Sequence record: PV683228.1
Origin: Escherichia phage EcF-vB
Reading direction: 5' to 3' (one strand)
Length of the DNA stretch: 64,000 bases
Both the position numbers and the translations under genes were made by a program. Positions 2,364 to 4,818 of this stretch are shown in pieces. Under the pieces are notes generated by a model. It ran no database searches, was not told where the DNA came from, and worked only from the letters and a program-made list of their open reading frames with translations. The first letter of the stretch is position 1. Every line of letters begins with the position of its first letter.

Positions 2364-2422
2364 TAAAGCTCTTTATCTGGGGCTTACTTTATCGAACTAT
2401 AAGCCCCTTGTAAAGTACTTTA
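2364..2422. repeat. intergenic element B1: TAAAGCTCTTTA - GGGGCTTA/TAAGCCCC hairpin - TAAAGTACTTTA
   Basis: Two TAAAG-N2-CTTTA palindromes flanking an 8 bp GC stem; four near-identical copies in the early region. Confidence 0.6.
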
Positions 2423-2623
2423 TTTGTTATTTTTGACAACTTTTAAAACCGCAAGGTAACCTAAGCAATAAGAATCACCGAAAAGAGTCCTACCCATGAA
2501 AGAATCCTCTTTTATATCCTTTGCAGTGACAGTTTTTTCTACGCCGTGAAAGAGAACTACATCACCAACTTTAATATCTTTGATGTGTGTAGTTTCAATG
2601 GTTAAACCGTTAATAATAGCCAT
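2420..2623 (-). CDS. hypothetical small protein (67 aa)
   Basis: ORF; conserved leader/SD. Confidence 0.5.
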   Translation of the reverse strand: MAIINGLTIETTHIKDIKVGDVVLFHGVEKTVTAKDIKEDSFMGRTLFGDSYCLGYLAVLKVVKNNK

Positions 2624-2716
2624 TTTAGAATCTCCTAGTTTAAGGATTTTGTTGAGTGGGGAAGGTCATTCCCTCCCGTTGATTAGTAATTTACTTGCTT
2701 TTAAAACCAAAATCAA
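2624..2716 (-). promoter_or_regulatory. early promoter cassette A4: -35 TTGATT / 17 bp / -10 TAAATT, 5' stem-loop, SD
   Basis: Same conserved cassette. Confidence 0.5.
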
Positions 2717-2724
2717 GAAAATTT

Positions 2725-3129
2725 TTATAGTTCTGCGTAAATTACGTCGCAGATATCACGAAAATCGTGATTTGTTAAATTACGTTGTAACCATGTTGCG
2801 AAAAAGTCAGCGATTGCAAAGTTAGCGTCATACTCGACAGATAGCCACACTTTAACAGCAAACCGAAACATTTTCAAATCAAGCTCTTTATTCATTACCT
2901 TAGATTTGCCTAACATGTCGGACATTTCATATTGTGCACCGTCTAGCGTGATACCTGCTGCAACGTCAGTTAATGAGTTTTTTACGTTTTCAACGTCTAA
3001 GATAACACTTTGAATCTTCCCAATAATGTTGTGCAATGTTTCATCTGGCGCTGCTGATGTCATCACATTAATCCGGTTAACGGTCAAACGTGCTTTTAAG
3101 ATTGATAACTCGCGTTTATTGATAGCCAT
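2725..3129 (-). CDS. hypothetical protein (134 aa)
   Basis: ORF; conserved leader/SD. Confidence 0.55.
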   Translation of the reverse strand: MAINKRELSILKARLTVNRINVMTSAAPDETLHNIIGKIQSVILDVENVKNSLTDVAAGITLDGAQYEMSDMLGKSKVMNKELDLKMFRFAVKVWLSVEYDANFAIADFFATWLQRNLTNHDFRDICDVIYAEL

Positions 3130-3160
3130 TTTTGAATCTCCTAGTTTAAGGTTAATGTTA

Positions 3161-3221
3161 TAAAGCTCTTTATCTGGGGCTTAAGATATCAGCTTTTAAG
3201 CCCCTTGTAAAGTACTTTACA
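3161..3221. repeat. intergenic element B2 (palindrome - GC hairpin - palindrome)
   Basis: TAAAGCTCTTTA ... GGGGCTTA-N13-TAAGCCCC ... GTAAAGTACTTTAC (perfect 14 bp palindrome). Confidence 0.6.
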
Positions 3222-3242
3222 CTAAGTGTAATTTTTTACCTT

Positions 3243-3488
3243 TTACCATGATGTAACTTGATGCGCTATTACTGTATACATCCTGATAAATTCTGCGCAA
3301 ACGGCCTTCGTAGTATACTTTCCAACTGGTTGGAATCTTTTTCCGTATCCTGTAGCAGTTTTTTGTAGTCCTGTAAGTTGCCAATCTAAGATATGTTGTT
3401 CGGCTTGTAAATCCTCGAAGTGCATTACACCGTTCACATAGTGACGAAGGGTTACATTTAAGGTGCGACCGTTGTTAGTAGTATACAT
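3243..3488 (-). CDS. hypothetical small protein (81 aa)
   Basis: ORF 3243..3530 trimmed to ATG at 3488 after the SD; the upstream part is translated leader. Confidence 0.5.
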   Translation of the reverse strand: MYTTNNGRTLNVTLRHYVNGVMHFEDLQAEQHILDWQLTGLQKTATGYGKRFQPVGKYTTKAVCAEFIRMYTVIAHQVTSW

Positions 3489-3513
3489 TTTAAAAGCTCC
3501 TAGTTTAAGGATT

Positions 3514-3672
3514 TTATTTTGACAGTTCACTAATTAAGACATCAAAGATTATATCATTATCTGCTACAGTTGCAACGCCAGTGATATAATCAATTTCTAA
3601 GATAACAACAACTTTCGTACATAAACCGTCATCTATATCATTCCAGACAACTTTATCACCTGCACAAAACAT
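3514..3672 (-). CDS. hypothetical small protein (52 aa), below the ORF-track length cutoff
   Basis: ATG at 3672 preceded by the conserved leader and cassette A5; MFCAGDKVVWNDIDDG... Confidence 0.4.
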   Translation of the reverse strand: MFCAGDKVVWNDIDDGLCTKVVVILEIDYITGVATVADNDIIFDVLISELSK

Positions 3673-3764
3673 TTTTTGAATCTCCAGTTTAGGACTTTAT
3701 TTAGTGGGGAAGGTCATTCCCTCCCGTTGATGTGTAATTTAATCTATATAAAAACCAGTGTCAA
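3673..3764 (-). promoter_or_regulatory. early promoter cassette A5: -35 TTGACA / 17 bp / -10 TAAATT, 5' stem-loop, SD
   Basis: Consensus -35, exact 17 bp spacer. Confidence 0.55.
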
Positions 3765-4093
3765 CAGTTTTGTTTTCGTTTGCTCAATTCTTGAACAATT
3801 ACAGCGTAGTAGTCTTTTAAGTCACTGATATTTAAAGCATTTATTAGTGCATTATAATCATCGATTAACTGAAAATCATCTTTGAAAATGTCGCTAATCT
3901 GGTACGTTCTTGCTTTGAATCTGAAGCTCATTTCTAACTGCTTTATTTGCTCATCGCTTAAACGCTCCAGAAAGCTCCCTACAAGGTTATTGCTAACCTG
4001 TTGTGTGATTGCCTTATTTGCTAGATTATAGGCTTTATATGCCTTATATAGCGCGAAAATGGCAATGGTTGCAGTGATGCCAGTCATTAACAT
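3761..4093 (-). CDS. hypothetical protein with N-terminal transmembrane helix (110 aa)
   Basis: ORF; start overlaps the stop of the upstream gene. Confidence 0.5.
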   Translation of the reverse strand: MLMTGITATIAIFALYKAYKAYNLANKAITQQVSNNLVGSFLERLSDEQIKQLEMSFRFKARTYQISDIFKDDFQLIDDYNALINALNISDLKDYYAVIVQELSKRKQNC

Positions 4094-4383
4094 GGTGTTT
4101 CCTCTTTACGTGATACTTTGCCATTTACAGTTATCTCATAGGATTCTAATAAGTCACTTTTAGACTTTACTGGACTTTTAAAAGTATCATCATAAATATT
4201 TACTTGCAATACAGGTTTTTTATACTCCCTGCAACTATTCCATAAGCAAATTACTACGCGACGGCCTTTTATTTTGCCGTGCAACCATTCCATAACATCA
4301 TGATTATTTCTTGATGTCTCGATAAAATCAATTTTGTTAAGTAACTTGCTTAGATTTTCACGGACTTTATTTGATAGTTTCAT
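4087..4383 (-). CDS. hypothetical protein (98 aa)
   Basis: ORF; conserved leader/SD. Confidence 0.5.
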   Translation of the reverse strand: MKLSNKVRENLSKLLNKIDFIETSRNNHDVMEWLHGKIKGRRVVICLWNSCREYKKPVLQVNIYDDTFKSPVKSKSDLLESYEITVNGKVSRKEETPC

Positions 4384-4412
4384 TTTTGAATCTCCAGTTT
4401 AGGATTTAGTGG

Positions 4413-4471
4413 TAAAGCTCTTTATCTGGGGCTTAAGATATCAACTTTTAAGCCCCTTGTAAAGTACTTTA
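4413..4471. repeat. intergenic element B3 (palindrome - GC hairpin - palindrome)
   Basis: Same structure as B1; right palindrome abuts the stop of the 4472..4729 gene. Confidence 0.6.
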
Positions 4472-4729
4472 TCAGATTAAATTGCTAGTTAATGATAAGT
4501 GCATTTTGTAACCTTTTTTAGTGAACACGTTCACTTTACCGAGTGTTTTTACACCTTTAAAAAGGTTATTTGAACTGCGTTTTAAAGTTAACTGTTTATC
4601 AACCTTCACACCCCACCTTACAGCAGTTTGTTTTCCGTTGTCAACCACTTTTCCGCATAACTTTTTAGCCATAACGCGAGCGTCATCACGAGTTTTTGCA
4701 GCAATTACAACGTTTTTGATAATAGCCAT
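4472..4729 (-). CDS. hypothetical small basic protein (85 aa)
   Basis: ORF 4472..4744 trimmed to ATG at 4729. Confidence 0.5.
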   Translation of the reverse strand: MAIIKNVVIAAKTRDDARVMAKKLCGKVVDNGKQTAVRWGVKVDKQLTLKRSSNNLFKGVKTLGKVNVFTKKGYKMHLSLTSNLI

Positions 4730-4759
4730 TTTTAAGTTCTCCAATTTAGGATTTAGTAG

Positions 4760-4818
4760 TAAAGCTCTTTATCTGGGGCTTACTTTATCGAACTATAAGC
4801 CCCCTGTAAAGTACTTTA
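4760..4818. repeat. intergenic element B4 (palindrome - GC hairpin - palindrome)
   Basis: Same structure as B1; abuts the stop of the 4819..5199 gene. Confidence 0.6.

What the first reader, a model, noticed from the sequence alone, without database searches (positions are those of the whole stretch)
2364..4818. Four copies of a palindrome-flanked GC hairpin element between early genes
Elements at 2364-2422, 3161-3221, 4413-4471 and 4760-4818 share the structure TAAAGCTCTTTA - 3 nt - GGGGCTTA - 13 nt loop - TAAGCCCC - 3 to 4 nt - TAAAGTACTTTA. Both flanks are TAAAG-N2-CTTTA inverted repeats (the right one a perfect 12 bp palindrome) about 50 bp apart. Each element abuts the stop codon of one gene and the leader of the next. 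On the minus transcript the hairpin is not followed by a U tract, so it is not a standard intrinsic terminator. Twin palindromes suggest binding sites for a dimeric DNA-binding protein or an RNA processing / structure element.
Basis: seen in the sequence. Interest (0 to 1): 0.65.

Follow-up and report, generated by a model that had tools for sequence, protein, structure and literature searches.

The report
Early promoter nested inside an RNA hairpin
The four repeats are portable gene-junction cassettes of Felix O1-like phages, each holding a stop codon, a host-type early promoter folded inside a conserved RNA hairpin, and a ribosome-binding leader; they resemble the promoter/stem-loop cassettes that shuffle small genes in T4-like phages and are not binding sites for a dimeric protein.

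Summary
TAAAG-N2-CTTTA occurs 8 times in 64 kb (0.21 expected), only in these four elements, and the GC hairpin occurs 4 times (0 expected). The window is a Felix O1-like phage and its genes run on the minus strand.

The interpretation needs changing.
- **Palindromes:** the two "palindromes" pair with each other, forming the lower stem of one 59-nt two-tier hairpin. Across 68 distinct copies that hairpin is 93% paired with compensatory changes. Palindromy of each flank shows no signal beyond chance.
- **RNA level:** frequent U·G wobbles place the structure in the sense-strand RNA.
- **Promoter:** a sigma-70 promoter sits inside the hairpin. TTTACA is invariant, and (TGn)TAnnnT lies 17-18 nt downstream with free middle bases. 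Spacing is kept when the hairpin shortens.
- **Junction:** the upstream gene's stop codon lies at the 5' edge in 140 of 142 contexts. A Shine-Dalgarno sequence and ATG always follow.
- **Mobility:** the cassettes mark nearly all synteny breakpoints against six related phages and swap with a second cassette family upstream of orthologous genes.

The closest known kind is the PeSL cassette of T4-like phages. The hairpin's shape recalls T7 RNase III sites, but its RNA function is inferred, not shown. This is a new variant of a known kind, of moderate interest.

The parts
2364..2422 (-). Family A copy 1: 59-nt two-tier hairpin element. Lower-stem 5' strand (S5) 2422-2411, which includes the TAA stop of ORF 2420-2623. 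Internal loop CAA. Upper stem 9 bp. Loop variant TAGTTCGATAAAG. Internal loop AGA 2378-2376. Lower-stem 3' strand (S3) 2375-2364.
   Evidence: (RNA dG -21.6, z -5.7)
2409..2414 (-). Copy 1: -35 hexamer TTTACA
   Evidence: invariant in 69/69 distinct cores
2386..2391 (-). Copy 1: -10 hexamer TAAAGT, 17-nt spacer. Predicted start at or next to the A at 2378.
   Evidence: the start site is inferred, not mapped
2332..2363 (-). Copy 1: shared leader, GGAG Shine-Dalgarno (2346-2343) and ATG (2334-2332) of the 180-aa ORF 1792-2334
3161..3219 (-). Family A copy 2: hairpin element, loop variant AAAGCTGATATCT
   Evidence: dG -23.7, z -4.4
3206..3211 (-). Copy 2: -35 TTTACA
3183..3188 (-). Copy 2: extended -10, TGaTATCTT. 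Predicted start near 3175.
   Evidence: (TG present)
3127..3160 (-). Copy 2: leader, GGAG (3141-3138) and ATG (3129-3127) of the 134-aa ORF 2725-3129 (ortholog of Felix O1 gene 20)
4413..4471 (-). Family A copy 3: hairpin element, loop variant AAAGTTGATATCT
   Evidence: dG -22.1, z -4.9
4458..4463 (-). Copy 3: -35 TTTACA
4435..4440 (-). Copy 3: extended -10, TGaTATCTT. Predicted start near 4427.
4381..4412 (-). Copy 3: leader, GGAG (4395-4392) and ATG (4383-4381) of the 98-aa ORF 4087-4383
4760..4818 (-). Family A copy 4: hairpin element, loop variant TAGTTCGATAAAG, internal loop CAG
   Evidence: dG -22.4, z -4.5
4805..4810 (-). Copy 4: -35 TTTACA
4782..4787 (-). Copy 4: -10 TAAAGT. Predicted start near 4774.
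4727..4759 (-). Copy 4: leader, GGAG (4742-4739) and ATG (4729-4727) of the 85-aa ORF 4472-4729
235..343 (-). Family B cassette: TTGACG-17-TAAATT promoter, then a short 5' hairpin (GGGAGGGAAUGACCUUCCC), then the same leader/SD/ATG as family A
836..939 (-). Family B cassette
   Evidence: D2/D4
1396..1504 (-). Family B cassette (TAGACA-17-TAAATT)
2618..2726 (-). Family B cassette (TTGATT-17-TAAATT)
3666..3774 (-). Family B cassette (TTGACA-17-TAAATT)
5194..5279 (-). Family B cassette (variant hairpin GGGGAGGAAAUGACUUCCCC)

Best explanation
Each element is a portable gene-junction cassette read on the minus strand. In order it holds the stop codon of the upstream gene, a host sigma-70 early promoter nested inside a two-tier hairpin, a common leader, a GGAG Shine-Dalgarno sequence and the ATG of the next gene.

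Shown from sequence and comparison:
1. The two 'palindromes' are the two strands of a 12-bp lower stem. With a 3x3 internal loop (CAN/AGA) and a 9-bp GGGGCUUAA upper stem they make one 59-nt hairpin. It is maintained by compensatory changes and by U.G wobbles that pair only in the sense RNA.
2. TTTACA sits half in the lower stem. A (TGn)TAnnnT motif sits in the loop and 3' arm, 17-18 nt downstream. Both behave as a -35 and an extended -10.
3. The cassettes are interchangeable linkers at which small genes of unknown function are inserted, deleted and swapped across the subfamily Ounavirinae.

Inferred:
- Host RNA polymerase starts at or next to the A of the invariant AGA, so transcripts from the cassette's own promoter lack the 5' half of the hairpin.
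- Only transcripts reading through from the upstream cassette fold the full hairpin.
- I think the hairpin most likely serves as a processing site and 3'-end-protecting structure, like the RNase III sites between T7 early genes. It could instead act as a weak attenuator. Either way each small gene would get its own message.
- The palindromic look arises because the stop codon TAA(A) and the -35 start (T)TTA are reverse complements of each other, and the downstream strand has to pair with both.
For: **Identity and literature.** The window is a Felixounavirus. The Felix O1 genome paper lists this element only as 'two 57 bp direct repeats' between genes 15/16 and 19/20, and says promoters and temporal control are unknown (PMC3185647).

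**Hairpin.**
- All four copies fold as one extended hairpin, dG -21.6 to -23.7, z -4.4 to -5.7.
- On 68 distinct copies, 93.3% of cells pair against 86.8 +/- 0.5 in shuffles (0/500). There are 82 two-sided compensatory cells against 28.7 (0/500).
- The upper helix is 98.4% paired, with 4 of 9 pairs compensatory. One lower-helix pair switches G-C (48) to U-A (10).
- That lower-stem switch is strongly associated in a less biased set (12/3/3/64, Fisher 2e-9, not corrected for phylogeny).
- Erwinia phage copies change the otherwise invariant GGGG/CCCC to GGTG/CACC.
- U.G wobbles occur in 61/68, 26/68 and 13/68 distinct copies at three pairs. They would be A.C mismatches on the other strand.

**Promoter.**
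- TTTACA is present in 69/69 distinct cores.
- TAnnnT lies at 17 nt in 64 and at 18 nt in 5, with free middle bases. TG is at -15/-14 in 39/69.
- The T and A of the -10 are invariant although they lie in the unpaired loop.
- Hairpins one base shorter keep the 17-nt spacer.
- The region upstream of the -35 is AT-rich, 0.81 against 0.61 for the genome.
- BPROM independently listed TTTACA|TGATATCTT and TTTACA|TGGTAGGAT among predicted promoters of UAB_Phi87 (PMC4837284, Table S1).
- In Felix O1 RT-PCR, genes 16 and 20, directly downstream of the repeat, peak at 5 min. Of the tested genes that follow a cassette, 4 of 7 are in that class against 1 of 11 others (p = 0.047).

**Junction and mobility.**
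- The stop codon lies within 7 nt of the 5' edge in 140/142 contexts.
- A Shine-Dalgarno sequence and ATG follow 19-36 nt after the element in all 146 copies.
- 36 of 37 synteny breakpoints against six phages fall in cassettes.
- The cassette precedes at least 14 and follows at least 17 unrelated gene families.
- Family A and family B alternate upstream of orthologous genes.

**Geometry.** T7 R1.1 also has a lower stem, an internal loop and a 10-bp upper stem, with a promoter overlapping the lower stem.
Against: - No transcription start, RNA 3' end or cleavage site has been mapped for any Felix O1-like phage in the searched literature, so promoter use and the hairpin's RNA function remain inferences.
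- The -10 hexamers are weak (TATCTT, TAAAGT, TAAGAT).
- The generic promoter scan is only modestly above background in this AT-rich DNA (42 found against 29.6 expected).
- Felix O1 gene 17, downstream of a divergent copy, peaks at 25 min rather than 5 min, and the RT-PCR data are end-point and crude.
- The copies are related by descent and by gene conversion, so the covariation counts overstate the number of independent events.
- The downstream strand AGATAAAGAG(C/A)TTTA is more invariant than pairing alone requires. That extra constraint is unexplained.
- There is no sequence similarity to T7 RNase III sites and no Rfam match.
Confidence: 0.68

Rival explanations
1. Terminator/attenuator plus restart, the strict PeSL reading. 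The hairpin stops or dampens transcription arriving from upstream, and the embedded promoter restarts it, so each small gene is transcriptionally insulated.
For: PeSL stem-loops, typically GGGG...CCCC, were shown to terminate in reporter assays (PMC2839356). The element has the same intergenic position, a GGGG/CCCC stem and an adjacent sigma-70 promoter. The structure is selected in the sense RNA.
Against: No U tract follows either the upper stem (AGAUAAAGAG) or the full hairpin (CCACUAAAUCC). The terminator scan calls none of the four, but does call canonical terminators nearby at 5650-5691, 8050-8067 and 9839-9862. The 12-bp lower stem and the internal loop are not needed for an intrinsic terminator.
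Confidence: 0.2
2. Operator sites. TAAAG-N2-CTTTA half-site pairs are bound by a dimeric phage or host protein, for example the HTH protein at 43599-43898, which shuts these early promoters off by sitting over the -35 and over +4 to +15.
For: The sites overlap the -35 and the early transcribed region, which are classic repressor positions. The downstream site AGATAAAGAG(C/A)TTTA is nearly invariant, even in Erwinia phages, more than pairing requires. The phage does encode a Cro/C1-type HTH protein (Pfam HTH_3, E 4.9e-10). Genes 16 and 20 of Felix O1 peak early and then decline.
Against: Self-palindromy shows no signal beyond chance and no compensatory change. Changes break each palindrome but keep pairing between the flanks. 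Co-resident divergent copies have a non-palindromic upstream flank. The centre-to-centre spacing of 47 bp puts the sites on opposite helix faces. No extra sites occur at the HTH gene or elsewhere in intergenic DNA. Family B cassettes replace family A upstream of orthologous genes without carrying such sites.
Confidence: 0.1
3. A DNA-level element: a cruciform or hairpin recognised by a recombinase or nuclease, or a selfish miniature repeat that spreads with no regulatory role.
For: The cassettes sit at almost all breakpoints. Copies within one genome share loop variants, which suggests gene conversion. The PeSL authors speculated that a protein might recognise the GGGG...CCCC stem.
Against: U.G wobbles in up to 61/68 distinct copies would be A.C mismatches on the complementary strand, so a two-sided cruciform is disfavoured. 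An 11-nt loop and a 3x3 internal loop make extrusion unlikely. The invariant TTTACA/TAnnnT spacing, the stop codon and the SD/ATG context point to a function in expression. Breakpoints at repeats are expected from ordinary homologous recombination alone.
Confidence: 0.04

Closest known systems
PeSL (promoter-early stem-loop) cassettes of T4-like phages (Arbiol et al. 2010, PMC2839356; Comeau et al. 2014, PMC4122927)
   Same: [quoted passage not shown] Both have an AT-rich tract, a sigma-70-type early promoter and a GGGG...CCCC stem-loop, followed by SD and ATG. The -35 TTTACA and 17-nt spacer match the PST/T4 consensus TTTACW-N17-TAYWAT. Both cluster among small genes of unknown function, lie at the indel and replacement breakpoints between close relatives, and occur in several sequence sub-types per genome.
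   Different: Here the promoter lies inside the stem-loop, with the -35 in a lower stem and the -10 in the loop, rather than downstream of it. There is a second (lower) stem and an internal loop. No U-rich or AT-rich tail follows the hairpin, so terminator action is doubtful. The host lineage is Ounavirinae, not T4-like phages. Mini-circles and promoter or terminator activity have not been tested.
RNase III processing sites between T7 early genes (R1.1, R1.3)
   Same: Both are intercistronic hairpins in early polycistronic RNA with a lower stem, an internal loop and an upper stem of about 9-10 bp. T7 R1.1 folds as roughly 9 bp / loop / 10 bp. Here it is 12 bp / 3x3 loop / 9 bp. In T7 too a promoter (phi1.1A, phi1.3) overlaps the 5' strand of the lower stem.
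   Different: There is no sequence similarity to the conserved T7 motif AAGGUC...GUGGCCUU(U)AUGAUUG. The loop is 11 nt rather than a tetraloop. The promoter is a host sigma-70 type and is nested inside, so own-promoter transcripts lack the hairpin, whereas in T7 they contain it. Cleavage is untested.
Lambda sib retroregulation (from my own knowledge, not tested here)
   Same: The logic is similar: a full RNase III hairpin forms only in transcripts that read through from an upstream promoter, not in those from the local promoter.
   Different: sib lies downstream of the regulated gene and destabilises it. Here the hairpin lies between genes and no destabilising role is indicated.
Rho-independent (intrinsic) terminators
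   Same: Both have a GC-rich stem-loop directly after a stop codon.
   Different: There is no U tract. The element has an extra AU-rich lower stem and an embedded promoter. Canonical terminators of this same phage look quite different (GGCTCC-TTCG-GGAGCC followed by T7-8, family D7).

Membership tests
PeSL cassette | Intergenic cassette spanning upstream stop codon to downstream SD/ATG | tested here: met
   Stop within 7 nt of the 5' edge in 140/142 contexts. SD and ATG follow 19-36 nt after the element in 146/146 copies.
PeSL cassette | Sigma-70-like early promoter (-35, about 17 nt, -10) | tested here: met
   By conservation only. TTTACA in 69/69, TAnnnT at 17-18 nt in 69/69, TGn in 39/69, and spacing is kept when the hairpin shortens. 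BPROM lists two copies in UAB_Phi87. Activity has not been measured.
PeSL cassette | AT-rich tract upstream of the -35 | tested here: met
   AT fraction 0.81 at -55..-46 and 0.74 at -45..-36, against 0.61 genome-wide.
PeSL cassette | Stable stem-loop, typically GGGG...CCCC | tested here: met
   Upper helix 98.4% paired, with 4 of 9 pairs compensatory. GGTG/CACC in Erwinia phages.
PeSL cassette | Stem-loop lies just upstream of the promoter and terminates upstream transcription | tested here: not met
   The stem-loop encloses the promoter (-35 in the lower stem, -10 in the loop). No U tract is present and the terminator scan makes no call. Termination itself cannot be tested with these tools.
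PeSL cassette | Clustered among small ORFans and located at indel/replacement breakpoints between close relatives | tested here: met
   36/37 breakpoints fall in cassettes. Flanking genes have no Pfam family. Families A and B swap upstream of orthologs. At least 14 downstream and 17 upstream unrelated gene families.
PeSL cassette | Formation of mini-circles by recombination between neighbouring cassettes | not testable with these tools
   Needs inverse PCR on infected cells or virion DNA.
PeSL cassette | Resident in T4-like myoviruses | tested here: not met
   The element occurs in Ounavirinae: Felixounavirus, Mooglevirus, Suspvirus and Kolesnikvirus.
RNase III processing site (T7 R1.1 type) | Irregular hairpin of about two helical turns with an internal loop between lower and upper stems, located between cistrons | tested here: met
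   12 bp / 3x3 loop / 9 bp. T7 R1.1 folded for comparison.
RNase III processing site (T7 R1.1 type) | Cleavage by host RNase III at a defined bond | not testable with these tools
   No RNA-end data for Felix O1-like phages were found.
RNase III processing site (T7 R1.1 type) | Sequence relationship to the conserved T7 site motif | tested here: not met
   No resemblance to AAGGUC...GUGGCCUUUAUGAUUG. No Rfam hit.
Intrinsic terminator | GC-rich hairpin immediately followed by a U tract | tested here: not met
   The hairpin is present, but it is followed by AGAUAAAGAG, or by CCACUAAAUCC after the full stem. None of the four is called.
Operator pair for a dimeric DNA-binding protein | Dyad symmetry of each site maintained in evolution | tested here: not met
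   84.4% 'paired', equal to the shuffle mean, with 0 compensatory changes. The palindromes break while inter-flank pairing is kept.
Operator pair for a dimeric DNA-binding protein | Protein binding | not testable with these tools
   An HTH_3 protein exists at 43599-43898, but binding cannot be assessed.

The most novel reading that the evidence does not exclude
One 59-nt sequence carries two codes. As DNA it is a sigma-70 early promoter. As RNA it is an RNase III-type processing hairpin, but only in transcripts that read through from upstream. The cut in the invariant AGA internal loop and initiation at the same AGA would then give the downstream message the same 5' end by either route. The near-absolute conservation of AGAUAAAGAGCUUUA across genera would reflect a further, still unknown recognition of that 5' end by a nuclease, a translational factor or a shut-off protein.
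Probability: 0.2. Interest if true: 0.65.

Novelty: new variant of a known kind. Interest (0 to 1): 0.45.

Why it matters
Felix O1 is a classic Salmonella typing and biocontrol phage. Its genome paper states that its promoters and temporal control are not understood.

These cassettes, together with the sister family B, would supply a concrete class of early promoters for the whole subfamily Ounavirinae. They would also explain why the region downstream of rIIB is a patchwork of small genes that differ between otherwise 90-95% identical phages. That extends promoter/stem-loop-mediated modular shuffling, so far described in T4-like phages, to an unrelated myovirus lineage.

There is a practical use as well. 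The cassettes mark safe junctions for engineering or deleting accessory genes in therapeutic Felix O1-like phages.

The nested layout, a promoter inside a hairpin that only read-through RNA can form, is an unusual overlap of DNA and RNA signals. It can be tested directly with standard RNA-end mapping.

Tried and rejected
- **T4 MotA-box middle promoter.** Some divergent copies read TGCTTTA, but the box is centred near -35 rather than -30, lies 19 nt rather than about 12 nt from the -10, and most copies read GTACTTTA. Rejected.
- **N4-type hairpin promoter for a virion RNA polymerase.** The stem and loop sizes are wrong and no such polymerase is known in this group. Rejected from my own knowledge.
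- **Single-stranded-DNA (Frpo-like) promoter.** In the folded strand the -10 sits in the loop with no template beyond it. Rejected by reasoning.
- **Terminator for antisense transcription.** The T-richness after the hairpin on the plus strand is inconsistent among the four copies. Rejected.
- **Known host operator motifs (LexA, TyrR and others).** No match from memory; not pursued.
- **Rfam.** No family at E <= 1 in 1-9000.
- **Bacterial genomes.** The pattern is absent from 185,579 species genomes, so it is not a host or prophage element.
- **Five IMG/VR hits outside Felix-like contigs.** Chance matches without the downstream segment.
- **Many of the 84 hits to the bare GC hairpin.** These lie in contigs that are not Felix-like; none of them was picked up by the element HMM.
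- **First alignment (A1).** It put a gap inside the 3' arm and was replaced by a loop-trimmed alignment (A2) before counting pairs.
- **First count of the Felix O1 RT-PCR association.** It missed the family B cassette before gene 23. The corrected p is 0.047, not 0.02.
- **Literature searches for transcription start maps or transcriptomes of Felix O1-like phages.** Nothing found. The wV8 paper does not discuss the repeats that its GenBank record annotates as DR_1-9.

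
Full report
**1. The observation**

The four elements are real and far from chance.
- TAAAGNNCTTTA occurs 8 times in the 64-kb window, all in the four elements, against 0.21 expected.
- GGGGCTTA-N13-TAAGCCCC occurs 4 times against 0 expected.
- The repeat finder shows the unit is longer than reported. It is about 95 nt and continues through a leader and Shine-Dalgarno sequence to the ATG of the next gene (family D3).

The window is a Felix O1-like myovirus, about 91% identical to vB_EcoM_LNA1, Alf5, wV8 and Felix O1. 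Genes in this part run on the minus strand. On that strand an element reads:

[TAA stop]AGTACTTTA-CAA-GGGGCTTAa-loop-tTAAGCCCC-AGA-TAAAGAGCTTTA-CCACTAAATCCTAAACTGGAGATTCAAAAATG.

**2. One long hairpin, not two palindromes**

Because each flank is nearly palindromic, the two flanks are also complementary to each other. Folding puts them together as a 12-bp lower stem with one A.A mismatch. Above it sit a 3x3 internal loop, a 9-bp upper stem and an 11-nt loop. The energies are -21.6 to -23.7 kcal/mol, with z-scores of -4.4 to -5.7.

To decide between 'two dyad sites' and 'one hairpin' I collected copies from IMG/VR with three different anchoring patterns and an HMM. This gave 131-146 copies and 69-82 distinct cores, all in 82-94 kb Felix-like contigs, with up to 10 per genome.

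On a register-safe alignment of 68 distinct copies:
- The hairpin model has 93.3% of cells paired against 86.8 +/- 0.5 in shuffles (0/500).
- It has 82 two-sided compensatory cells against 28.7 (0/500), and slid controls collapse to 33-57%.
- The self-palindrome model scores 84.4%, identical to its shuffle mean, with no compensatory change.

The one informative lower-stem position decides the question. When the downstream flank changes C to A, which breaks its own dyad, the upstream flank changes G to T, which breaks its dyad too but restores pairing between the flanks. The counts are G-C 60, T-A 12, unpaired 8 (Fisher 2e-9, not corrected for phylogeny).

Erwinia phage copies add an independent event. 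GGGG/CCCC, invariant in the enterobacterial phages, becomes GGTG/CACC.

Three pairs are frequently U.G (61/68, 26/68 and 13/68 distinct copies). They would be A.C on the other strand, so selection acts on the sense RNA rather than on a DNA cruciform.

**3. A promoter nested in the hairpin**

The simple scan already flags TTTACA-17-TAAAGT or TGnTATCTT in all four copies. On its own this means little in AT-rich DNA (42 found against 29.6 expected). The comparative pattern is what counts.
- TTTACA is invariant (69/69).
- A hexamer TAnnnT lies 17 nt downstream in 64 cores and 18 nt in 5. Its middle three bases vary freely (TATCTT, TAAGAT, TAAAGT, TAGTAT, TATGAT and others).
- TG is present at -15/-14 in 39/69.
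- The T and A of that hexamer are invariant although they lie in the unpaired loop, where neighbouring bases vary.
- In the 16 cores whose hairpin is one base shorter, the base is lost on the far side of the -10, so the 17-nt spacer is preserved.
- The 20 nt upstream of the -35 are AT-rich, 0.81 against 0.61 genome-wide, even though they are usually coding.

The predicted start is the A of the invariant AGA, or the C before it. That is minus-strand 2378, 3175, 4427 and 4774. This is an inference.

Two outside results agree.
- BPROM listed TTTACA|TGATATCTT and TTTACA|TGGTAGGAT among 42 generic predicted promoters of UAB_Phi87. It also listed the family B hexamers (PMC4837284, Table S1).
- In Felix O1 the element lies directly upstream of genes 16 and 20 (positions confirmed), and both are in the 5-min class of the RT-PCR table. 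Over genes 1-23, 4 of the 7 tested genes that follow a cassette are in that class against 1 of 11 others (p = 0.047). This evidence is weak, and gene 17 is an exception.

**4. A complete junction module that moves**

- The upstream gene's stop codon starts within 7 nt of the element's 5' edge in 140 of 142 distinct contexts. In 61 it is the element's own TAA.
- Every copy is followed by a Shine-Dalgarno sequence and an ATG 19-36 nt downstream.
- A second family of six cassettes (family B: 235-343, 836-939, 1396-1504, 2618-2726, 3666-3774, 5194-5279) carries a TTGACA-like -35, a TAAATT -10, a short hairpin that would start about 4 nt into the transcript, and the same leader.
- Against Felix O1, Alf5, wV8, skuden, NJ12 and GEP101, 36 of 37 alignment endpoints within 1-5300 fall in a family A, family B or shared-leader repeat.
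- Window 1472-2617 (three genes) is an insertion relative to Felix O1, bounded by two family B cassettes. ORF 3514-3672 is found only in skuden among the six.
- Orthologous genes are preceded by family B in some phages and family A in others (1060-1401 and 4819-5193). Gene 2725-3129 carries five loop variants under proteins that are 94-96% identical.
- The cassette precedes at least 14 and follows at least 17 unrelated gene families.
- The flanking genes have no Pfam family.
- The element occurs in 288 phage records across Ounavirinae, namely Felixounavirus, Michonne, SUSP2 and the Erwinia Kolesnikvirus phages. It is absent from 185,579 bacterial and archaeal species genomes.

**5. How it most likely works**

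Shown: a conserved sense-RNA hairpin, an embedded sigma-70-type promoter signature, a stop/SD/ATG context, and a role as recombination junctions.

Inferred:
- Host RNA polymerase starts at the AGA, so the cassette's own transcripts lack the 5' half of the hairpin.
- No intrinsic terminator lies between neighbouring cassettes, so transcripts from the upstream cassette should read through and fold the whole structure.
- The lower stem / internal loop / upper stem shape and the position between cistrons match the T7 RNase III sites. T7 R1.1 folds as about 9 bp / loop / 10 bp, with the phi1.1A promoter overlapping its lower stem.
- I therefore favour processing and/or 3'-end protection, which would give each small gene its own message. 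A weak attenuator role, as proposed for PeSL, is the main alternative. It is disfavoured by the lack of any U tract.

The palindromic appearance follows from three overlapping constraints. TAA(A) of the stop and (T)TTA of the -35 are reverse complements, and the downstream strand must pair with both.

One thing stays unexplained. AGATAAAGAG(C/A)TTTA is more invariant, even in Erwinia phages, than pairing requires. This leaves some room for a protein or nuclease that recognises it. No extra sites occur elsewhere, including near the Cro/C1-type HTH gene at 43599-43898.

**6. What is known, and novelty**

The Felix O1 paper recorded the element only as 'two 57 bp direct repeats', and the family B promoter as '39 bp repeats'. 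It stated that promoters and temporal regulation were unknown (PMC3185647). The wV8 GenBank record annotates DR_1-9 without comment and the wV8 paper is silent. I found no start-site or transcriptome study and no Rfam family.

The closest described kind is the PeSL cassette of T4-like phages: a sigma-70 promoter plus a GGGG...CCCC stem-loop, intergenic among ORFans, at indel breakpoints (PMC2839356, PMC4122927). Most defining features are met. Three differ:
- The stem-loop encloses the promoter instead of preceding it.
- It has a second stem and no terminator tail.
- The phage lineage is unrelated.

I therefore class it as a new variant of a known kind, of moderate interest.

Noticed in passing
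window 235-343, 836-939, 1396-1504, 2618-2726, 3666-3774, 5194-5279 (minus strand): A second cassette family (B). It has a TTGACA-like -35, 17 nt, a TAAATT -10, then a 7-bp hairpin (GGGAGGG/CCUUCCC, dG about -11.5) starting about 4 nt after the predicted start, then the same leader/SD/ATG as the reported elements. The hairpin's position suggests a 5'-terminal mRNA-stabilising stem-loop. Felix O1's '39 bp repeats' are this promoter.
   Followed up: partly
window 3486-3533 and 3666-3717, flanking ORF 3514-3672: A 52-aa ORF is bracketed by two copies of the shared leader repeat. It is absent from Felix O1, Alf5, wV8, NJ12 and GEP101 and present (100% identical) only in skuden. It looks like a recent single-gene cassette insertion.
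   Followed up: partly
window 1472-2617: A three-gene block (ORFs 1492-1725, 1792-2334 and 2420-2623, including element copy 1) is an insertion relative to Felix O1, bounded by two family B cassettes.
   Followed up: partly
window 5517-5550, 5556-5589, 5629-5662: Three direct copies of a 34-nt unit (CTGCACGTTTTGAAAATGAAAAAGCTCTTTGGAG) sit next to the strong terminator-like hairpin at 5650-5691. Their meaning is unknown.
   Followed up: no
window 8034-8067, 9826-9859, 11909-11942, 16384-16417: A family of canonical intrinsic terminators on the minus strand (GGCTCC-TTCG-GGAGCC followed by a T run), corresponding to Felix O1 t2/t5. They contrast usefully with the hairpins studied here, which lack a U tract.
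   Followed up: no
window 47263-49799 and 48124-48887: Dispersed and 27-nt-spaced direct repeats lie inside long ORFs. They probably correspond to the repeats the Felix O1 paper reports in the tail-fibre-like genes 76/77.
   Followed up: no
It sits inside an operon with no element-like site upstream.
   Followed up: partly
L107 10085-10160 and 7603-7632; L108 4928-4965 (Erwinia phages M7 and BoyaciRG1): A third cassette type. TTTACA is followed by a different hairpin (GGGGTTACGG...CCGTAACCCC) and by GTCGAAACAAACAACCC instead of AGATAAAGAG. It may be a hybrid of promoter and hairpin modules.
   Followed up: no
window 1792-2334 (minus strand): The 180-aa protein downstream of element copy 1 has a weak, sub-threshold Pfam hit to CTD12 of ABC-three-component (ABC-3C) systems (E 0.0024, 18.8 bits against a cut-off of 25).
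   Followed up: no
Felix O1 record AF320576 8300-8422 (L090): Gene 15 of Felix O1 is preceded by yet another promoter-like cassette (TTGACA-17-TACTAT) that has the shared leader but no hairpin. The leader/SD module therefore combines with at least three different promoter modules.
   Followed up: no
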